47,320 nucleotides of DNA from an uncultured Gammaproteobacteria bacterium (GTDB lineage: Bacteria > Pseudomonadota > Gammaproteobacteria > UBA6002), in assembly GCA_963705725.1 (NCBI GenBank), contig CAVPKM010000005.1, forward strand, positions 1 to 47,320, written 5' to 3'. How positions within the stretch are numbered: position 1 is the stretch's first letter; the number at the start of each line of letters is the position of its first letter. The notes beneath the pieces are model-generated. The model ran no database searches. It was not told the origin of the DNA and worked only from the letters and a program-made list of their open reading frames with translations. The position numbers and the translations under genes were made by a program. This document shows positions 9,813 through 47,320 of this stretch, in pieces.

Positions 9813-10553
9813 ATGAGTGAAAATAAAGTTGCATTGGTGACAGGCGCTGCGAAACGTATTGGTGCGGCAATAGCAACAGCCCTGCACCAACAAGGAATGA
9901 ATGTTGTGATTCATTATCACCATTCGAAACAAGAAGCAGAAGCCCTGTGTTTAAAGCTAAATCGACTACGTCAACATTCCGCCATTAGCCTGGGTCTTGA
10001 TATTAGAAAAACCAGCGCATGCCAAACATTAATTCAACACTCAACAGAAGCTTGGCAGCGATTGGATTTATTGGTCAATAATGCCTCTAGCTTTTACCCT
10101 ACCCCCATTATGAAAACCCAAGAAAAGGAATGGGAAGATCTGCTCGGCAGCAATCTAAAAGGACCTTTTTTTCTTAGTCAAGCAGCTGCGCCTTTTCTCA
10201 AACTATCACAAGGAAATATTATTAATATCACTGATATTCATGCTGATCGACCTCTTAAAAATTACACGATATATTCAATTGCCAAGGCGGGATTAGTCAT
10301 GCTGACTAAGTCATTGGCAAGAGAACTTGGGCCTAGGGTAAGGGTGAATGCGGTTGCCCCTGGCGCAATATTATGGCCAAACGAGGAAAATGCGCTTAAC
10401 GAGAAAATTCAACAGTATGTTGTAGCTAGAACTTGCTTAAAACGGCAAGGTTTCCCGCAAGATATTGCAGCGGCAGTGCTTTTTTTAAATGGTCAAAATT
10501 ATATTACTGGTCAAATTATCACAGTGGATGGAGGAAGAAGCATCAAGGATTAG
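9813..10553 (+). CDS. folM: Pteridine/dihydromonapterin reductase (SDR)
   Basis: TGAAKRIG, NNASSFYPT, YSIAK and RVNAVAPG; pterin-gene context. Confidence 0.88.
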   Translation: MSENKVALVTGAAKRIGAAIATALHQQGMNVVIHYHHSKQEAEALCLKLNRLRQHSAISLGLDIRKTSACQTLIQHSTEAWQRLDLLVNNASSFYPTPIMKTQEKEWEDLLGSNLKGPFFLSQAAAPFLKLSQGNIINITDIHADRPLKNYTIYSIAKAGLVMLTKSLARELGPRVRVNAVAPGAILWPNEENALNEKIQQYVVARTCLKRQGFPQDIAAAVLFLNGQNYITGQIITVDGGRSIKD

Positions 10554-40910: not shown

Positions 40911-42425
40911 TTACCTCCCTTGCAATGATTTATCAAAAATTCGATAAGAAAGCGCTTCTTTTAAATGGTCTATGGTTATTTTCTGAGTTTGTTCAAGGTC
41001 GGCAATGGTGCGCGCAACTCTTAATATGCGATGGTAAACCCTAGCAGATAAATTTTTTTGATTACTGTACTTTTCCAAAAAAGCAATTTCTTTGCCACTG
41101 AGGTTACAAGCAGTTAAAAGCTCACCGGACGCTAGGTAGGCATTAGATTTTTGATTTCTTTTAATTTGTTGCTCTCTTGCAAGCAAAACCCGCTTCGCAA
41201 CTTCACTACTACTTTCAGCTAAAATTTCCGTACTGGTTAGCAAGGAAGTCGCTAAGGGCTGAAGCTCTGCCTGGAGGTCGATGCGATCGAGTATGGGGCC
41301 AGAAATACGAGATTGATAGCGCTTAATTTGATCAGGCAAGCAAGAGCAATCCCCTCTAAAGTTACCATAAAAGCCACAAGGACAAGGATTCATTGCCGCA
41401 ATGAGTTGAAATTTGGCAGGATATTCGATTTGTATCGCAGCTCTTGAAAGACAAACCCTCCCTGCCTCGAGTGGTTCTCTTAGCACTTCTAATGCTTGCC
41501 GTTTAAATTCTGGAAATTCATCAAGAAATAGCACTCCGTGATGAGCAAGTGAAATTTCGCCCGGTTTAGGAGGGTTACCACCACCGATCAAAGCAAAACT
41601 AGAAGCGCTATGATGTGGCGCACGAAAAGGCCTTTGCCGCCAGGTTGCCGCTTGCAGTTTCATTCCCGCCACTGACTGTATGGCAGCAAGCTCCGCCGCC
41701 TCGGCTTCTGCTAATGGAGGTAAAATGCCCGGTAAGCAATGGCTCAGTAAAGTCTTTCCTACCCCAGGAGGACCAATCATTAAAATACTATGTTGCCCAG
41801 CTGCTGCAATTTCAAGTGCTCTTCTTGCTTGGTGCTGACCCTTCACATCTTTCAAATCTGGATATGGTAAGGCCGCGAGGGAGGTGAATTTTGCAACATG
41901 TTGTTTTAAGGGTGTTTTTTTTAAAAAATGGCTACATACTTCAAGAAGATGCTTTGCAGGAAATAAAGAAATCTCTTCTATCCGCTCTGCTTCTAGCGCA
42001 TTTTCAAAAGGCAGGATTAAACTTCTTCCTGATTTTTTAGCGCCTAGCGCGATGGGAAGAATACCTGTTATCGATCGCAGCTCACCAGACAAAGCCAGCT
42101 CACCTGCAAATTCATAAGCATCAAGCTCTAGGCAAGGTATTTGCTTAGAGGCAACCAGAATCCCAAGCGCAATAGGTAGGTCATACCTGCCTCCTTGCTT
42201 GGGTAAATCTGCAGGTGCAAGATTCACCGTAATTCGTTTCATTGGAAATTCAAAATGCGAAGTAATAATTGCACTACGAACACGATCTTTACTTTCTTTA
42301 ACAACAGTTTCAGGCAATCCAACGATATGCAGCGCAGGTAGACCGCTAGAAATATGCGTTTCTACTGTGACGCTTGGAGCATCAATTCCCAGATTAGCAC
42401 GGCTGTGGATGATAGCGAGATTCAT
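40911..42425 (-). CDS. comM: ComM/YifB Mg-chelatase-like AAA ATPase
   Basis: IVGLPET.VKES.DRV, NLAPADLPK, GPPGVGKT, PFRAPHHS, LFLDEFPEF and NPCPCG. Confidence 0.96.
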   Translation of the reverse strand: MNLAIIHSRANLGIDAPSVTVETHISSGLPALHIVGLPETVVKESKDRVRSAIITSHFEFPMKRITVNLAPADLPKQGGRYDLPIALGILVASKQIPCLELDAYEFAGELALSGELRSITGILPIALGAKKSGRSLILPFENALEAERIEEISLFPAKHLLEVCSHFLKKTPLKQHVAKFTSLAALPYPDLKDVKGQHQARRALEIAAAGQHSILMIGPPGVGKTLLSHCLPGILPPLAEAEAAELAAIQSVAGMKLQAATWRQRPFRAPHHSASSFALIGGGNPPKPGEISLAHHGVLFLDEFPEFKRQALEVLREPLEAGRVCLSRAAIQIEYPAKFQLIAAMNPCPCGFYGNFRGDCSCLPDQIKRYQSRISGPILDRIDLQAELQPLATSLLTSTEILAESSSEVAKRVLLAREQQIKRNQKSNAYLASGELLTACNLSGKEIAFLEKYSNQKNLSARVYHRILRVARTIADLEQTQKITIDHLKEALSYRIFDKSLQGR

Positions 42426-42568
42426 ATTTTTTCATTTTAATTTTTTTTTAAACGATAAAATATTTCGTGCTAATGGACAATTACGTGAATATTACGGTGT
42501 TGAAAATTCTACTCTAATGGAGTGCTGCTTGCTGGCGCTTTAGTAAATTCTATAAATTTCATTTCATT

Positions 42569-42615
42569 AATCTACTGGGCTATATATAAATCTGTTATAT
42601 ATAGCCCAGTAGATT
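42569..42615. repeat. Perfect 21-bp-arm palindrome (5-nt loop) just downstream of the ATPase gene
   Basis: AATCTACTGGGCTATATATAA-ATCTG-TTATATATAGCCCAGTAGATT. Confidence 0.9.
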
Positions 42616-42629
42616 TTATTTCGATTAGC

Positions 42630-44084
42630 CTATAAAAACAAATCTTCTAAAGTTGCTATTGCACTTATGCAATCAGCATATTTAGACTTTGCAATCCCAT
42701 TAGCTGAAATAAATGCAATAAATATTTGCTCTGATGTTTTTGAAACTTTTCTATAAACATCTACTTTGTTCATCAAATTACTGTAATATGGCTTATCAAT
42801 TTTAAATGGCTTATCAGTAAATTTTATTTCGCAGATAGTTACCGCATCATCGCTTCTTTCAAATAAAAGATCAATTTGTGCGCCTTTTTCTTTACTGCTA
42901 TCTTTAGGGTTAAAACGCCAGGTTCCTACCTGCGATCCAGAGGGTATTTTAAGAGATTTTTGAATTTGATTGATGTGTTTATAGCATACTGATTCAAATG
43001 AGTATCCAAGCCATGCATAATACTGGGATGTATTTGAATGATGTAACCAATAATCATTGCCTGATTGATTGGAAAGCATATGTTTTTGTGGTTCAATCCA
43101 TTTCAAATAAAAATATACATATTCATCAATTATACGATAATAAACTCCTTGGCGTTGATGTTTTAACGGTAAGAAAGACTTTATAAAACCAGCTTGTTCC
43201 AAATCGTTTAGCCGATCTGTAAGTGTACCGCCTTTTTTGGTTAATTTACTCTTTCCCTCGACATATGACCTTGTAACGCCTTCCCTCAAAGTTGAAACAA
43301 TTCTTATGAGCTCAATGTATACTTTTGCATCTTCAAATAACGATTTAAACAATTTTTCAAACTCAGAAAACAAGATACCATTTTCCCTAAAACACAGATG
43401 TTCAATATTTTGTGCAGTGGACAATCCTTTCTTCACTTTATCAAGATAATGTGGTACTCCACCAATAGCCATGTACAACTGTAATATTTGCTTATCACCA
43501 ATTTTGATACCTCTGTTTATTACAAATTCTTTCGTTTCATGCAGTGAAAATGGTTTTATTAATAAACACCTAGTGTATCGATTATGGAGGCCACCTTTAT
43601 TATAAATAATGTTTTTTATTATCCATGACGCACTAGATCCACAAACAACAAGTTTTAGTCTTTTGTTTTTTGACCAACAATGATTCCAATAGTAGTCTAA
43701 TGCCTGTAATATCCTTGATCGCCTTGTAGCCATCCAGGGCAACTCATCTATAAATATAACGATTTTTTTAGTGCCAGATAAATTATTAATTGCGCTGTTT
43801 AACTCTTCAAAAGCTTCCATCCATGTAGGAGAGGTTTTGATGCTTGCCCCATTATAAAATGCTTTTCCTATAACTTTTGCAAATTCTGCGAGTTGCTCTT
43901 TTAACAAGCCGTCTTGAACACCAGTAACATGAAAGAATATACATTTTTTGGGACGAAAGAATTGTTCAATTAAGAATGTTTTCCCTATTCTTCTGCGGCC
44001 ATATACAACAGCAAACTCCGCTTTCTTAGAGCCAAAAAGGTCAGTTAGTTCTCGTTGTTCCTCTTTTCTTCCAATAATCTTCAT
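42630..44084 (-). CDS. Archaeal-type AAA ATPase + winged helix + PD-(D/E)XK (DUF234-like) nuclease
   Basis: IIGRKEE, Walker A YGRRRIGKT, Walker B IFIDELPW, CGSS, GGVPHYL, wHTH-like LNDLEQAGFI, FESVC and QIDLL...ICEIKF. Confidence 0.88.
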   Translation of the reverse strand: MKIIGRKEEQRELTDLFGSKKAEFAVVYGRRRIGKTFLIEQFFRPKKCIFFHVTGVQDGLLKEQLAEFAKVIGKAFYNGASIKTSPTWMEAFEELNSAINNLSGTKKIVIFIDELPWMATRRSRILQALDYYWNHCWSKNKRLKLVVCGSSASWIIKNIIYNKGGLHNRYTRCLLIKPFSLHETKEFVINRGIKIGDKQILQLYMAIGGVPHYLDKVKKGLSTAQNIEHLCFRENGILFSEFEKLFKSLFEDAKVYIELIRIVSTLREGVTRSYVEGKSKLTKKGGTLTDRLNDLEQAGFIKSFLPLKHQRQGVYYRIIDEYVYFYLKWIEPQKHMLSNQSGNDYWLHHSNTSQYYAWLGYSFESVCYKHINQIQKSLKIPSGSQVGTWRFNPKDSSKEKGAQIDLLFERSDDAVTICEIKFTDKPFKIDKPYYSNLMNKVDVYRKVSKTSEQIFIAFISANGIAKSKYADCISAIATLEDLFL

Positions 44085-44094
44085 AGATTGATCC

Positions 44095-44145
44095 TTAATT
44101 TACTGGGCTACTTATAATTATATTATATCCAGCCCAGTAAATTAA
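44095..44145. repeat. Palindrome with 15-bp outer arms and TATAA/TTATA inner arms, overlapping the RBS/promoter of the ATPase gene
   Basis: TTAATTTACTGGGCT-act-TATAA-ttata-TTATA-tcc-AGCCCAGTAAATTAA. Confidence 0.88.
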
Positions 44146-44332
44146 AGAGCCTTCGTCAAGTTTTTCAGAAGGCCTCCTTACAGCCTCTGCTTTTCCAGAT
44201 TAATTAATCTCTTTCAAAGGATGACTATCATGCTTTCCATTAAAAAAAATCTTCTAATATTTTACATTCTTATATTTTATCGGTAAAAACCATGTTGCAA
44301 TGCGGTTAAAGCAGCAATGTATGCGAATAAAT

Positions 44333-45508
44333 CTACTTTATTAAGGCAATGGCATGTTCTTTTAAACTAGTTTGAATAGCAGCTAGGTTGTCTTCAGGTA
44401 AGTTTGAAAAAAAGCTTTGAGAAGCACTACTTAAAGAAGGCATCGCCTTAGGATGGAGGGTTAAATTTAAATGCTCCTGAATGATGGGCGTCATTTTAGA
44501 TTCATCCTGCTCTTTTTTTCTCCTCATTTTTATACTCGTATTTCCCTTTTCTTCATCCCGTCTTTTTGCAAAATCCAGAAGTGTTATATTTCTTATTGAA
44601 TAAAAAGGATCCGCATTCTGTGTTAATAGATAGGCGACAATGTTGCTTCGTTTATTATAAATAGCAGCAGACAGTGGGGTTGCAGAATCGAATGAATACG
44701 CTTCTGAATAACCTTCGAGATGATTGGTTGCCGCATGGTAGTCTTCAATTAATGACTTAACGAGTACTAATGCCTTTTTAGAATCAAAGCACTGTTTTAT
44801 TATCTCAGTTAAGAGATTCGGTAAATCATACCCTGATTGATGCAAAAATTTAAATTTATGGCGGAATTCATGTAACAAGGGGCAATGTTCAGCTAATTGA
44901 AGCGATGCTTTTAAAGCAGGCTCTAAATCTTCAAACGCAGTATTTGATAGACTTGCTTCTTGGAGAATGGCTTTCGTCTCTCTACCCAAAATCACGGATA
45001 TATTTTTCTTTCCACCAGGGCAGCTTATCATTTCAAAAGCAAATCGATTATTTTCTAGCAAAGTAAAATGACCAAAATGCAAATCTTCAGAAGGAGCCAC
45101 CACTTGAACTTCTGGCATATTTAATGTCAATTTGGCAAAAGCAAATTGCATATTATCGAGTTGCGCCAAACTTCCAGTGGAGCAAGAATCTAAAAATAGA
45201 GTTGCATCTTCAGTTAAAATTGAGGGTAAGCAGGCAAAAATTTCCTTGCAATTGTTCGTGGTTAACTGAAGGTTTTCAGTTGCCGTCATCGATTGCGGAC
45301 TACCATGCATCCTTAGCCAAAAAAACCCTACGCTGTTTTTAGGAAGATTCTCTAATTGTGAAAACGGTTCATTTATTTCCATGTTGAGCTTCAAAACGGT
45401 ATAACCCGCCTGCTCTAAGTCATGAACATTTTTCTGATAAAACCCATAAGTAGAACGGAATTGATTTACTCGATGGGTAGTTTGTAAAATCACAGCGTAT
45501 CTTGGCAT
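44333..45508 (-). CDS. Effector-like protein: N-terminal His-Gly/Ser-Cys (clan CD-like) domain plus ankyrin repeat
   Basis: FWLRMHGS...LFLDSCSTG; ATPLSAAIYNKRSNIVAYLLTQNADP then TLLDFA; ATG 45508. Confidence 0.7.
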   Translation of the reverse strand: MPRYAVILQTTHRVNQFRSTYGFYQKNVHDLEQAGYTVLKLNMEINEPFSQLENLPKNSVGFFWLRMHGSPQSMTATENLQLTTNNCKEIFACLPSILTEDATLFLDSCSTGSLAQLDNMQFAFAKLTLNMPEVQVVAPSEDLHFGHFTLLENNRFAFEMISCPGGKKNISVILGRETKAILQEASLSNTAFEDLEPALKASLQLAEHCPLLHEFRHKFKFLHQSGYDLPNLLTEIIKQCFDSKKALVLVKSLIEDYHAATNHLEGYSEAYSFDSATPLSAAIYNKRSNIVAYLLTQNADPFYSIRNITLLDFAKRRDEEKGNTSIKMRRKKEQDESKMTPIIQEHLNLTLHPKAMPSLSSASQSFFSNLPEDNLAAIQTSLKEHAIALIK

Positions 45509-45669
45509 AACAGTCTCAATAAATAACAATAAATGTCATTATTTTGCCATATTTAATCTATTTTGTAAATATTTGATTAATTTTTCATATATCTATGATG
45601 CTGTTGAACTATCACATGATAAACAGCCAAAAGAAAAAAACAAAGCGGGACAAAATTAAAGCAACAAAC

Positions 45670-46502
45670 TCAAGCATTGAAACTTGATAGTTCTATCAAA
45701 TCTTCAGACGTACTTGATAATAATTCAGATTTAAAAGAAATGGTTTTTTGTTCAATCGAATTCATAAAATTCTTGGCCTCATGCTTTAATTTTGAAAATT
45801 CAAAAATATGGTGCTTTGAAAGTTTATAAGGGAAAGAGTTATCTAGTTGAGCGCCATTTATTAAATAATTTGCAAATGCTTTAACGGCAAGATCTAAGCT
45901 AATTTTCCCATAATTGATAGGGCAAAAATAAATTAAGGCACTAACGTGTTTAGAGTATGTTTTATGTGAAATTTCTTTGCAGACATGAGTTCCTAAGTAA
46001 TTGCGAACACCGATTACGGACTTTCCAGTGGTGTTCCAACAATAATTTGCATCATCATCTTTGGTTAAAAACATATTTATTAGCTTTAGAAAGTTATTAT
46101 GAAGATAATTTGTTCTAGGATCCTTAAAATTTGTAGGGTTGTTAGGTATTGATATAAATTTATTATTCTTAGAGAGCAACGGAGAATATTGTGAGTTTGA
46201 TCAAAATTAGCAAGGTCTACCCCTTGTTTTAAATAAAGCACATGGTCCATTAAATACGGATAGTTTGATAGAATTTGAGTTTGAGCTTTCTCTTCTGAAG
46301 AATGCTGCTCTGTTTCGAATAATAATGCATAAAGACTGAAAGAATTTATTTTTTTAGAGGATGGACAACATTCAGCCAAAGCGATTAAGGTCTGGAAGTT
46401 TGGATTTTCCTTCGCTTCACTTAATAGTTGGTGAGGTGATTTTAAACTCTGACTCTGATCTGCTGCTAATGGGAAACACTTCGAAAACATATCTAATCTC
46501 AC
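45670..46502 (-). pseudogene. Orphan gene apparently split by a frameshift (ORFs 46086-46502 and 45670-46179)
   Basis: Two same-strand ORFs overlap by 94 bp in different frames; the second begins with a TTG lacking an obvious RBS. Confidence 0.5.
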
Positions 46503-46587
46503 CTTTATAAAATATGAATATCATATAAAAATTAATTAAATATATCAATAAAAAAAACAGAATTGTGATAAAGTAAAATGAAGCAAG

Positions 46588-46658
46588 GGTAGCGCAAATA
46601 ATTTGGTAGCGTAAATAATTTTGTGTAAGCAGGTTGAGTCAGCAGATTTTTTGCTACC
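46588..46658. repeat. Tandem 17-mer GGTAGCG(C/T)AAATAATTT x2 plus partial inverted copy TTTTTGCTACC
   Basis: 46588-46604 and 46605-46621 are 16/17 identical; the inverted motif ends at 46658. Confidence 0.6.
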
Positions 46659-46663
46659 GCAAG

Positions 46664-46993
46664 TTAGCTAGCCCATTTGAACTCCGGATCAATGTCTTCT
46701 AACAGCCACATTAAAGCACCTGCTATTTGTATAGGCTTTTTATCTAATTGCTTATATGCATTAATTAACTCTTGTATAGAAAAATTAGACAGCACCTCAT
46801 TCAAATCAGATTGTGCTGCCGAGGCGATATTATAACAACGCAAACAATTCTTTATGAATAATTCTTTGTTAACCATAGATAAAATTTCATCAAGTATTTC
46901 TATATTCGTTGAAAGAACATGGGCAGCCCAAATGGCTTTATCCTTTTCTATTAGTTTATTAACAATATCCACCCAATATGTTTTATTTACCAT
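46664..46993 (-). CDS. Hypothetical protein
   Basis: 109-aa ORF from ATG 46993, helical composition, no motif. Confidence 0.55.
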   Translation of the reverse strand: MVNKTYWVDIVNKLIEKDKAIWAAHVLSTNIEILDEILSMVNKELFIKNCLRCYNIASAAQSDLNEVLSNFSIQELINAYKQLDKKPIQIAGALMWLLEDIDPEFKWAS

Positions 46994-47167
46994 AATTAGC
47001 ACCCTGATTCGTATTAGTAAACTATGATGTGTGCATCTCACCTTTTTTGTTAGTCATGAAATCTATTGCAACTTCAAGCAGCGTCCATATATGAACAGTT
47101 TTCGGCTCAGGGTAATTCCTTCCAATTGGATGCGCATGCTTCCACCTTCACTCAATACCTTGGATAA

Positions 47168-47203
47168 AGGAGAAAATTCACCATTTCGATCTCGAGGAAC
47201 TTC
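47168..47203 (-). mobile_element. Tiny IS256/Mutator transposase remnant (EVPRDRNGEFSP)
   Basis: 12 codons matching the hallmark VPRDRxGxFxP motif; no flanking transposase sequence recognisable. Confidence 0.45.
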
Positions 47204-47226
47204 GGCTGTGCAAAAAACGTAACCGG

Positions 47227-47319
47227 CTATAAGTTATCAAATTTAATTCCTGAAACTAATCTTTTAACTATTTCCACAGTTAATTCTTTATAAACTTCTT
47301 TAGTGGGAGTATCTGTCGA
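47227..47319 (-). CDS. 3' end of a CDS starting beyond the window (…STDTPTKEVYKELTVEIVKRLVSGIKFDNL*)
   Basis: Open frame from the window edge to TAG at 47227. Confidence 0.45.
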   Translation of the reverse strand, partial: STDTPTKEVYKELTVEIVKRLVSGIKFDNL

Positions 47320-47320
47320 G

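What the first reader, a model, noticed from the sequence alone, without database searches (positions are those of the whole stretch)
42569..44145. ATPase-wHTH-nuclease gene precisely bracketed by two homologous palindromic sites: candidate cassette or self-targeting system
Seen: 14 bp after the stop and 10 bp before the start lie palindromes sharing the exact 39-bp geometry TACTGGGCT-N3-TATAA-N5-TTATA-N3-AGCCCAGTA. The N3 and N5 positions differ while arms and spacing are conserved, and each site has its own self-complementary outer extension (AATC/GATT versus TTAATT/AATTAA). This argues for selection on symmetry, not simple duplication. The upstream site overlaps the AAGGA RBS and contains two TATAAT hexamers on the coding strand. 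I saw the motif nowhere else in the window. Known: this ATPase/DUF234 architecture is widespread, sporadic and poorly characterised, and NTPase-nuclease fusions are often anti-phage. Inference, three options: (a) recombination or hairpin ends making a 1.58-kb single-gene cassette moved in trans (the core resembles dif ATAA-N6-TTAT but with N5, and no recombinase is in the window); (b) paired operators bound by the protein's own wHTH, looping the gene; (c) sites recognised or cut by the nuclease itself.
Basis: partly seen in the sequence, partly recalled or inferred. Interest (0 to 1): 0.75.

Follow-up and report, generated by a model that had tools for sequence, protein, structure and literature searches.

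The report
Own-operator palindromes around ATPase-nuclease gene
The two palindromes are copies of a DNA motif that most relatives of this ATPase/DNA-binding/nuclease gene carry just in front of themselves, most likely so that the protein can shut off its own gene; this is an ordinary kind of control, but it gives a first experimental handle on a widespread, untested candidate anti-phage gene family.

Summary
Two 39-bp palindromes of identical geometry bracket the gene at 42630..44084 (-). There are 2 matches in the window and none in 100 shuffles.

The gene is a full-length member of PADLOC candidate family PDC-S27 (E 3.6e-168). It combines an Orc/STAND-like ATPase, a winged helix and a PD-(D/E)xK nuclease domain.

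The upstream palindrome is a family trait, not a peculiarity of this locus:
- 49 of 75 homologue loci (35-52% identical) have a strong palindrome within 150 nt of the start codon, against 27 of 528 control ORFs.
- The palindromes share a half-site: variable arm, then GC-N4-TATA.
- The half-sites are essentially confined to the gene's own flanks.
- They differ between paralogues in one genome.
- They track winged-helix divergence best.
- In Bacteroidota they overlap a promoter element.

A second copy just after the stop codon, as in the window, recurs in 8 of 75 loci.

Best reading: operators bound by the protein itself (option b). The role of the downstream copy is unresolved. The cassette reading (a) is weakly supported; the cleavage-target reading (c) is untested. 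Novelty and interest are moderate.

The parts
42569..42615 (.). Site A: perfect palindrome (21-nt arms, 5-nt centre) made of two half-sites of the family motif (outer arm, GC-N4-TATA). It starts 14 nt after the stop codon. It is the downstream copy of the operator module.
   Evidence: I4. It would fold to -30.7 kcal/mol as RNA. A terminator-like T-run is present only on the + strand, which is not the gene's strand.
42630..44084 (-). Gene for a 484-aa ATPase-wHTH-PD-(D/E)xK protein (PDC-S27 candidate defence family). Walker A is G29-T36 and Walker B is D113-E114. The winged helix is about residues 251-320. The nuclease motif is D405...E419-x-K421.
   Evidence: ATPase_2 residues 6-217, DUF234 residues 326-424; PDLC04984, E 3.6e-168; invariant residues; pLDDT 91; fold matches.
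44092..44096 (-). AAGGA ribosome-binding site. It overlaps the outer extension of site B.
   Evidence: Read; 7 nt lie between it and the ATG at 44082-44084.
44092..44148 (.). Site B: imperfect palindrome (27-nt arms, 85% complementary; 39-bp core at 44101-44139). It ends 10 nt before the ATG and contains two TATAAT hexamers on the coding strand. It is the proposed promoter-overlapping operator.
   Evidence: I2. Homologues carry equivalent sites at the same place.
44149..44173 (-). GCCTTC/GAAGGC hairpin (13-nt loop) followed by a T-rich tract on the - strand. It is a likely terminator of the upstream ORF 44333..45529, which would make the ATPase gene its own transcription unit.
   Evidence: Read. 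Inference.

Best explanation
The two palindromes are copies of the cognate DNA-binding site (operator) of the protein encoded between them. That protein is an Orc/STAND-like ATPase fused to a winged helix and a PD-(D/E)xK nuclease, and it belongs to the untested PADLOC candidate defence family PDC-S27.

Each palindrome is two half-sites: a lineage-specific outer arm followed by GC-N4-TATA(A).

The upstream copy (site B) overlaps the likely -10 hexamers and abuts the ribosome-binding site. Occupancy by a dimer or higher oligomer of the protein would therefore repress its own transcription. This would keep a potentially dangerous nuclease at a low, self-limited level, and would do so in whichever host the gene lands in.

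The downstream copy (site A) is a second operator module that about one homologue in nine also carries. I think it most likely acts as an auxiliary site, by cooperative binding or looping, or as a roadblock that insulates the gene from neighbouring transcription. This part is conjecture.

Shown here: the sites, their family-wide conservation, their restriction to the gene's flanks, their co-variation with the protein, and their promoter overlap in Bacteroidota.

Inferred: that the binder is the gene's own winged helix, that binding represses, and everything about the downstream copy.
For: 1. Conservation. A palindrome of score >=12 lies within 150 nt upstream of the start codon in 49 of 75 homologue loci, against 27 of 528 control ORFs from the same loci (Mann-Whitney p 3e-30).

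2. Shared half-site. GC-N4-TATA occurs at least twice in the 150 nt upstream in 34 of 77 homologue genes, against 2 of 446 controls. Among 124 aligned half-sites, T occurs at -4 in 106 and at -3 in 81. The window's TTTACTGGGCTGGATATAA resembles the Legionellaceae-MAG L016 TTTAGGGCTGGTTATA and the L029 GATTTGGCTGGATATAA.

3. Independent records. The same motif at least twice upstream was found in 4 of 11 plasmid or phage records fetched afterwards: a Paracaedimonas plasmid, Wolbachia phage WO, a Butyrivibrio fibrisolvens plasmid and an Emticicia plasmid.

4. Specificity to the gene. In the 56 loci with a palindrome of score >=10, 53 have at least 2 half-sites within 300 nt upstream, 27 have at least 3 and 10 have at least 4. 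Only 4 single, mismatched half-site matches occur in the other 791 kb.

5. No shared partner gene. Neighbouring genes differ from locus to locus, so no co-inherited separate regulator exists.

6. Paralogue specificity. L025 and L035 lie on one contig and have different outer arms.

7. Co-variation. Half-site distance correlates best with wHTH distance (rho 0.34; partial 0.17, permutation p 0.002). The independent correlation with the nuclease domain is absent (partial 0.03, p 0.36), across 33 loci.

8. DNA level, not RNA level. Arm mismatches show no wobble bias: 13 G-T, 10 A-C and 39 other, out of 62. Unpaired third half-sites are common.

9. Promoter overlap. In 31 of 41 Bacteroidota-labelled loci a TAnnTTTG element lies within 80 nt upstream, against 36 of 225 control ORFs. 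It is often fused to the half-site as TAnnTTTGGC...TATA. That this element is the Bacteroidota -7 promoter box is recalled, not from a call.

10. Fold. The model is confident (pLDDT 91). Its best matches are archaeal AAA+ proteins 2qen and 2fna, then DNA-bound Orc1/Cdc6 (2qby, 2v1u) and MalT.
Against: - No binding or repression experiment exists, and I found no publication on it.
- The sigma-70 consensus scan found no promoter-like site on the gene strand inside site B.
- 26 of 75 homologues lack a palindrome of score >=12.
- The GC-N4-TATA pattern was derived by eye from the same loci that it was then counted in. Only the plasmid/phage set is independent, and there 7 of 11 records lack two copies.
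- The Mantel-type correlation is modest and is confounded by shared descent.
- Autoregulation alone does not explain a copy after the stop codon.
- As RNA, site B would pair with and hide the AAGGA if transcription began upstream of it.
- The contexts of the closest relatives (70-88% identical) could not be inspected.
Confidence: 0.6

Rival explanations
1. Mobile single-gene cassette. The palindromes are the ends or recombination sites of a 1.58-kb unit that is moved either by the encoded ATPase-nuclease itself or by a host recombinase acting in trans. The upstream end survives everywhere because it doubles as promoter and operator; the downstream end decays.
For: - The nearest neighbours of the homologues are mostly unrelated housekeeping genes (queA/yajC, hisS, rpsL/ffh, nifU/ftsW, gidA, mutS, uvrB). 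This was seen in 127 of 136 nearest ORFs scanned. The gene with its sites therefore behaves as a solitary insert in several phyla.
- 8 of 75 homologues and the window have the module on both sides.
- In L045 the site-gene-site unit is nested in a direct repeat of about 70 nt.
- Homologues occur on 148 plasmid records and 8 phage records.
Against: - 67 of 75 loci have no downstream copy.
- Upstream sites form arrays of up to 8 half-sites.
- Orientation of the downstream copy is direct in five loci but inverted in two.
- Only 1 integrase and 1 IS110 transposase appear among the 127 neighbours.
- The central spacing is not constant.
- The two window sites differ at 11 variable positions, so they are not a recent duplication.
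- The window gene adjoins further low-GC orphan ORFs.
Confidence: 0.12
2. RNA-level hairpins. Site B would be a 5'-UTR stem that hides the ribosome-binding site. Site A would be a 3' stem that terminates or stabilises the mRNA.
For: - Both sites would fold strongly as RNA: -30.7 and -30.4 kcal/mol, z about -7.6.
- The site-B stem includes AAGGA.
- Site A lies 14 nt after the stop codon.
Against: - There is no U-tract after site A on the gene strand.
- A specific sequence (GC-N4-TATA), not just pairing, is conserved across phyla.
- The N3/N4 positions are often non-complementary, and mismatches show no G-U bias.
- 27 of 56 loci have three or more half-sites, including unpaired ones.
- No Rfam family comes near its threshold.
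Confidence: 0.08
3. Substrate sites. The nuclease domain itself recognises or cuts the palindromes. This would be self-targeting, self-excision, or a two-site restriction-like enzyme.
For: The PD-(D/E)xK residues D405, E419 and K421 are invariant in 60 sequences. The C-terminal model's best matches are nucleases such as McrC, EndoMS/NucS, Cas4-family proteins and restriction enzymes.
Against: - Cutting sites that flank one's own gene in the chromosome would be self-destructive, yet the arrangement recurs.
- Half-sites of about 17-19 bp are too rare to serve as targets in foreign DNA.
- Site divergence shows no independent correlation with the nuclease domain.
- The fold matches are weak: best E 1.1e-3, TM 0.47.
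Confidence: 0.05
4. Operator for some other, host-encoded regulator, or an Orc/ORB-like replication element of a degraded mobile element.
For: - Binding by the gene's own product is not shown.
- The fold resembles DNA-bound Orc1/Cdc6 initiators.
- The sites are inverted repeats around an AT-rich centre next to the initiator-like gene.
Against: - The sites travel with the gene through at least six phyla while the neighbours change.
- Paralogues in one genome have different sites.
- The window is ordinary chromosome with housekeeping genes.
- No replication genes are nearby.
Confidence: 0.05

Closest known systems
PDC-S27 (PADLOC phage-defence candidate, single gene)
   Same: Full-length match to PADLOC model PDLC04984 (E 3.6e-168, residues 1-483). 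The family is described as an ATPase fused to a PD-(D/E)xK domain (PMC12988326, passages).
   Different: Nothing differs in the protein. The family's cis-element was not mentioned in the passages I read. The candidates are stated to be untested ('145 untested phage defence candidates', bioRxiv 10.1101/2024.01.29.577857, passage).
Controller (C) protein / C-box control of restriction-modification systems (recalled, not from a call)
   Same: A horizontally moving nuclease system carries its own palindromic operators in front of the gene that encodes the DNA-binding regulator. This gives self-limiting expression in a new host.
   Different: - Here the DNA-binding domain is part of the ATPase-nuclease itself.
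- Half-sites are longer (about 17-19 bp).
- Arrays reach 8 half-sites.
- One locus in nine has a copy after the stop codon.
- Binding is not shown.
Archaeal Orc1/Cdc6 initiators with ORB repeats (PDB 2qby, 2v1u)
   Same: AAA+ plus winged-helix fold (Foldseek E about 1e-8). Inverted repeats flank an AT-rich centre beside the protein's own gene.
   Different: - Global TM-scores are low (0.31-0.37).
- There is an extra C-terminal nuclease domain.
- The setting is a bacterial chromosome among housekeeping genes.
- There is no evidence of replication.
STAND/MalT-type ATPase transcription regulators (PDB 8bob; mycobacterial IniR)
   Same: A signal-transducing NTPase of this fold class coupled to promoter binding. 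The IniR ATPase domain is reported as SSO1545-like (PMC5760070, passages), and SSO1545 (2fna) is the second-best fold match here.
   Different: - Those proteins are activators with LuxR-type HTH and sensor repeats.
- They have no nuclease.
- No autoregulatory palindrome family is known to me for them.
Gene units flanked by palindromes: Xer/dif modules, integron attC cassettes, REP/RAYT (features recalled)
   Same: One gene is bracketed by related imperfect palindromes. As with RAYT and its REP, the palindromes co-vary with the protein.
   Different: - The central spacer is 5 nt here and is variable in homologues.
- I saw no GTTRRRY-type cores by eye.
- No integrase is in the window.
- Copies are not dispersed.
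- The protein is not a Y1 transposase.

Membership tests
PDC-S27 (PADLOC candidate defence system) | Full-length match to the family's profile HMM | tested here: met
   PDLC04984: E 3.6e-168, 558 bits, residues 1-483 against profile positions 1-473 of 474.
PDC-S27 (PADLOC candidate defence system) | ATPase domain fused to a PD-(D/E)xK nuclease domain | tested here: met
   - Pfam ATPase_2 (E 5.7e-20) and DUF234 (29.6 bits against a cut-off of 22.5).
- DUF234 is listed as a PD-(D/E)XK family (PMC3424549, table row).
- D405, E419 and K421 are invariant in 60 sequences.
- The fold matches to nucleases are weak: best E 1.1e-3.
PDC-S27 (PADLOC candidate defence system) | Protection against phage | not testable with these tools
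   The source paper says the candidates are untested. Neighbouring window ORFs have no defence-family hits.
Autoregulatory operator of the gene's own product | Site lies at the gene's own promoter or translation start | tested here: inconclusive
   - Site B ends 10 nt before the ATG, overlaps AAGGA and holds two TATAAT hexamers.
- The consensus scan found no sigma-70 site on the gene strand there.
- In Bacteroidota-labelled homologues, TAnnTTTG is fused to the proximal half-site; 31 of 41 loci carry the element.
Autoregulatory operator of the gene's own product | Site is conserved with the gene and specific to it | tested here: met
   - 49 of 75 loci against 27 of 528 controls have a strong upstream palindrome.
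- 34 of 77 against 2 of 446 have at least two motif copies.
- Only 4 stray half-site matches occur in 791 kb.
- Paralogue-specific arms.
- Co-variation with the wHTH.
Autoregulatory operator of the gene's own product | Protein has a sequence-specific DNA-binding domain, binds the site and represses | not testable with these tools
   A winged helix is predicted at residues 251-320 (helices at 253-263, 272-278 and 286-297, then two strands), and the fold resembles DNA-bound Orc1/Cdc6. Binding and repression need experiments.
Xer/dif-type site (IMEX or dif module) | Two 11-bp arms around a fixed 6-8-bp centre, with arms conserved within a phylum (recalled) | tested here: not met
   The centre between the TATAA elements is 5 nt in both window sites. 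In homologues the spacing ranges from 0 to 7 nt, or 12 to 26 nt in the everted form, and the arms differ between close taxa.
Integron gene cassette (attC) | attC with RYYYAAC/GTTRRRY cores, cassette array, and an integrase or a cluster of attC sites (recalled) | tested here: not met
   No such cores at the site borders by eye. Only two sites in 47 kb. No integrase domain among the window ORFs scanned.
REP/REPIN with RAYT | Many dispersed copies per genome and a Y1-transposase gene between them (recalled) | tested here: not met
   Two copies in 47 kb. Homologues' half-sites are absent from 791 kb of flanks apart from 4 mismatched single hits. The protein is ATPase_2/DUF234. The rest of this organism's genome could not be scanned.
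Intrinsic terminator (for site A) | GC-rich stem followed by a U-tract on the transcribed strand | tested here: not met
   The stem is present (-30.7 kcal/mol). The T-run lies only on the + strand, which is opposite to the gene. The gene strand continues AATGAAATG.
Orc1/Cdc6-ORB replication origin | AAA+ and wHTH initiator fold beside inverted repeats around an AT-rich unwinding element, with origin activity | tested here: inconclusive
   The fold resemblance is significant, but global TM is 0.31-0.37. The repeat geometry is similar. Origin activity is not testable. The context is ordinary chromosome.

The most novel reading that the evidence does not exclude
Site-gene-site is a minimal self-mobilising element. 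In this reading the Orc/TnsC-like ATPase with its winged helix recognises the flanking palindromes. The PD-(D/E)xK domain cuts there, so that a single gene excises and re-inserts itself between housekeeping genes. Bracketed loci would be young insertions. Older ones would keep only the upstream end, because it doubles as operator and promoter. This would be a new class of one-gene transposon-like element. It would also mean that a supposed defence gene family is largely selfish DNA.
Probability: 0.08. Interest if true: 0.85.

Novelty: new variant of a known kind. Interest (0 to 1): 0.5.

Why it matters
PDC-S27 is reported as one of the most common candidate defence families, with 3503 archaeal and 4562 bacterial instances in one survey (PMC12988326, passage). 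Yet it is untested, and I found nothing in print about what its winged helix binds. The searches were for DUF234, PDC-S27, COG1672/PF01637/PF03008, PABY2304/SSO1545 and ATPase_2.

A conserved, gene-linked half-site gives three things:
- a concrete DNA ligand for gel-shift, footprint and structural work;
- a probable explanation of how a free-standing nuclease gene stays harmless after transfer into very different hosts;
- a sequence signature for finding family members and their promoters.

If the downstream copy proves functional, whether as a loop, an insulator or an element end, it would be a less ordinary feature. If the reading is simple autorepression, it is a tidy but unsurprising addition to how defence genes are regulated.

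Tried and rejected
Whether the protein self-associates therefore stays open.
- NCBIfam: no family matched.
- PDB by sequence: no match with the single protein. With the profile there were only weak AAA+ matches (2qen E 2.8e-4, TnsC E 2.6e-3).
- Rfam: only sub-threshold generic hairpin matches.
- Sigma-70 and terminator consensus scan: no promoter on the gene strand in site B. Site A is terminator-like only on the wrong strand.
- Downstream palindromes in general are not enriched in homologues: 10 of 75 against 64 of 528, p 0.16. Only copies of the gene's own site are enriched: 10 of 75 against 6 of 457 at score >=14.
- L027 looked bracketed, but its flanking repeat is a different GC-rich palindrome. 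It was not counted.
- Idea that site A is the operator of the next gene: rejected. In bracketed loci the next gene is unrelated, lies 200-360 nt away, or is convergent (L044, L062).
- Idea that the downstream copy is left over from a collapsed tandem gene pair: unlikely. Similarity stops at -3 or -7 from the ATG and never enters the coding sequence. The 17-codon ORF after site A resembles the gene's start only weakly.
- Defence-island context in the window: none found.
- tRNA as an integration site: no tRNA in the window.
- Literature searches were partly swamped by unrelated terms: DUF2345, 2FNA and ATPase2.
Full report
OBSERVATION

The pattern TACTGGGCT-N3-TATAA-N5-TTATA-N3-AGCCCAGTA occurs twice in the 47,320-nt window, at 42573-42611 and 44101-44139. 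There is no third match even with three mismatches, and none in 100 shuffles.

Site A is a perfect palindrome with 21-nt arms (42569-42589 and 42595-42615). Site B has 27-nt arms that are 85% complementary. The two sites bracket the ORF 42630..44084 on the minus strand (484 aa), lying 14 nt after the stop codon and 10 nt before the ATG.

THE GENE

- Pfam finds ATPase_2 (residues 6-217, E 5.7e-20) and DUF234 (residues 326-424, 29.6 bits against a cut-off of 22.5).
- NCBIfam finds nothing.
- PADLOC model PDLC04984 (PDC-S27) matches end to end at E 3.6e-168.
- In an alignment of 60 relatives (50-88% identical), the Walker A residues G29, R30, R31, R32, G34 and K35, the Walker B residues D113 and E114, and the nuclease triad D405, E419 and K421 are invariant.
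- The AlphaFold model is confident (pLDDT 91, pTM 0.88). It shows a winged helix at about residues 251-320, between the ATPase and the C-terminal domain.
- Its best structural matches are the archaeal AAA+ proteins 2qen and 2fna. DNA-bound Orc1/Cdc6, MalT and STAND/NLR proteins follow.
- The C-terminal domain modelled alone (pLDDT 88) matches PD-(D/E)xK nucleases only weakly (best E 1.1e-3, TM 0.47).
- DUF234 is listed as a PD-(D/E)XK family in PMC3424549 (one table row read).

THE UPSTREAM PALINDROME IS A FAMILY TRAIT

Of 605 matched stretches, 602 encoded relatives, and the best 80 loci were kept (35-52% identity).

Gene models could be set in 78 of the 80 loci (79 genes). L025 and L078 were dropped because their matches were split or partial. 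Three more genes ran off the contig and one had a short flank, which left 75 genes.

The best inverted repeat within 150 nt upstream scores at least 12 in 49 of 75, and at least 10 in 55 of 75. Among control ORFs from the same loci, 27 of 528 score at least 12 (Mann-Whitney p 3e-30).

Read side by side, the sites share one half-site: a lineage-specific arm, then GC-N4-TATA(A), with T-rich positions just before the GC. Examples are TTTACTGGGCTGGATATAA in the window, TTTAGGGCTGGTTATA in L016 and GATTTGGCTGGATATAA in L029.

The motif GC-N4-TATA occurs at least twice in the upstream 150 nt of 34 of 77 genes, against 2 of 446 controls. I derived that motif from the same loci, so this count is not independent.

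An independent check came from records fetched later out of the plasmid and phage collections. Four of 11 have at least two copies upstream:
- a Paracaedimonas plasmid;
- Wolbachia phage WO;
- a Butyrivibrio fibrisolvens plasmid (a Firmicute, with TTTTGGCGGAATATA, a 14-nt gap, its reverse complement, and a third half-site);
- an Emticicia plasmid.

Two more have related palindromes. The four most distant records (24-31% identity) have other palindromes or none.

SPECIFICITY AND CO-VARIATION

Each locus's own arm was searched over the whole locus with at most 2 mismatches. The results for 56 loci (window included) were:
- 53 have at least 2 half-sites within 300 nt upstream;
- 27 have at least 3;
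- 10 have at least 4; L015 has four palindromes at a 56-bp period;
- only four single, mismatched hits lie elsewhere, in 791 kb.

L025 and L035 lie on one contig, and their paralogues have different arms: TTCTGGCTAC against TTATCCGCCAC, each before TTATA.

Across 33 loci, half-site distance correlates with protein distance most strongly for the winged-helix segment (rho 0.34; partial 0.17, permutation p 0.002). It is weaker for the ATPase (partial 0.11, p 0.04) and absent for the nuclease domain (partial 0.03, p 0.36). This test is confounded by shared descent and is supportive only.

DNA SITE OR RNA HAIRPIN

Both window sites would fold strongly as RNA (-30.7 and -30.4 kcal/mol), and the site-B stem would hide AAGGA. 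Four results point to a DNA-level site instead:
- Arm mismatches in 50 palindromes show no wobble bias: 13 G-T, 10 A-C and 39 other, out of 62.
- Unpaired third half-sites are common.
- A specific sequence is conserved, rather than mere pairing.
- No Rfam family comes near its threshold.

Site A has no U-tract on the gene strand.

In 31 of 41 Bacteroidota-labelled loci a TAnnTTTG element lies within 80 nt upstream, against 36 of 225 controls. It is frequently fused to the proximal half-site. I recall this element as the Bacteroidota -7 promoter box; that identification comes from no call. For the window itself, the sigma-70 scan gave no hit on the gene strand within site B. Promoter overlap there therefore rests only on the two TATAAT hexamers.

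THE DOWNSTREAM COPY

Copies of the gene's own site just after the stop codon are enriched. The up/down shared score is at least 14 in 10 of 75 loci, against 6 of 457 controls. With gapped alignment over 600-nt flanks, eight loci and the window exceed the maximum of 150 shuffled pairings. One of those eight, L027, carries a different element and was not counted.

The clear cases are L026, L031, L043, L044, L045, L059, L062 and L064. L059 scores 31-32, below the shuffled maximum of 35, but both of its half-sites are matched downstream. This makes 8 of 75; L006, L008 and L037 are weak.

The copy starts 0-100 nt after the stop codon (0-65 nt in all loci but L031, where it starts at about 100 nt). 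It is in direct orientation in the window, L026, L031, L043 and L044. There the similarity runs from the site to -3 or -7 of the ATG but never into the coding sequence. It is inverted in L062 and L064.

The next gene downstream is unrelated, lies 200-360 nt away, or is convergent. The copy is therefore not the next gene's operator. A collapsed tandem pair does not explain it well either. Its function is unresolved.

CONTEXT AND MOBILITY

The window is ordinary gammaproteobacterial chromosome: topA, ubiA, dksA, dapF, lysA, lptD-surA-ksgA, hemYXDC, uvrD, pgi and a comM-like gene directly downstream. GC content falls from about 0.40-0.47 to 0.29-0.37 from 42.4 kb to the window's end. The ORFs at 44333..47041 have no Pfam or PADLOC match. 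There is no tRNA in the window.

Among the homologues, 127 of the 136 nearest ORFs were scanned; nine longer than 1000 aa were left out for the size limit. They are mostly housekeeping genes. About nine are mobile or defence-like: HEPN, HipA, IS110, Schlafen/AlbA_2, Uma2, JetD, an integrase, Fic and ParA.

The gene plus its operator thus behaves as a solitary insert. This keeps a mobility reading alive, but no recombinase travels with it.

LITERATURE

- PDC-S27 is called a candidate found by 'guilt by embedding', abundant in archaea and bacteria, and an ATPase fused to a PD-(D/E)xK domain (PMC12988326, passages only).
- The source preprint states that 145 candidates are untested (10.1101/2024.01.29.577857, passages). 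Its supplements are closed, so the family's definition there was not seen.
- Whole-word 'DUF234' is held by two papers. 'COG1672/PF01637/PF03008' is held by six. Of these I read passages in two (PMC3424549; PMC1913061) and saw the rest only as search listings; nothing I saw concerns DNA sites.
- I found no description of the half-site. This is a statement about these searches only.

MECHANISM

Most likely (confidence about 0.6) the protein binds its own half-sites through the winged helix, perhaps with help from the ATPase domain as in Orc1, acting as a dimer or higher oligomer. It would occlude its own promoter and ribosome-binding site, and so hold the level of a potentially toxic nuclease low in any host.

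Site A would be an auxiliary operator. Whether ATP state or a phage cue releases the protein from DNA is speculation.

NOT CHECKED

- The contigs of the closest relatives (70-88% identical).
- All biochemistry.

Noticed in passing
L045: about -168..-95 upstream and +90..+167 downstream of the homologue: The site-gene-site unit is itself nested in a direct repeat of about 70 nt that includes the 3' half of a terminator hairpin. It looks like a duplicated target or a Campbell-type junction. This is a single case.
   Followed up: partly
L027: -336..-261 and +76..+150 relative to the homologue: The gene is flanked by a different GC-rich palindrome (REP- or terminator-like), unrelated to its own operator-type sites near the start codon.
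   Followed up: partly
L015: 31-217 nt upstream of the homologue: Four operator palindromes (eight half-sites) lie at a regular 56-bp period. The nearest upstream ORF is an IS110-family transposase.
   Followed up: no
L025 (6148-7556 and 10001-11318) and L035, on the same contig: One genome holds at least three family copies. The two in L025 are broken into several frames, and the copy at 10001 has its own distinct palindrome.
   Followed up: partly
L082 (Wolbachia phage WO record), L088 (B. hungatei plasmid), L091 (Rhodothermus plasmid): One homologue sits inside a prophage record, next to head-tail connector genes. Others lie within about 0.5-1.5 kb of cas12a or csm5.
   Followed up: no
window 44149-44173 (- strand): A GCCTTC/GAAGGC hairpin with a 13-nt loop and a T-rich tail lies immediately upstream of site B. 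It is a likely terminator of ORF 44333..45529, which would make the ATPase gene a separate transcription unit.
   Followed up: no
window 42400-47320: A low-GC block (0.29-0.37, against 0.40-0.47 before it) runs to the window's end. ORFs 44333..45529, 45670..46179, 46086..46502 and 46664..47041 have no Pfam or PADLOC match.
   Followed up: partly
window about 42512-42562 (- strand), just after site A: A 17-codon ORF (MKFIEF...) starts 10 nt after the palindrome core. It loosely parallels the gene's own spacing and its MKII start. It is too weak to call a relic of a second gene copy.
   Followed up: partly
L018: 20-100 nt downstream of the homologue: A very long perfect palindrome (32-nt arms, GC-rich), unrelated to the operator motif, lies between the homologue and a TPR_21 gene. 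It is probably a genome-specific repeat.
   Followed up: no
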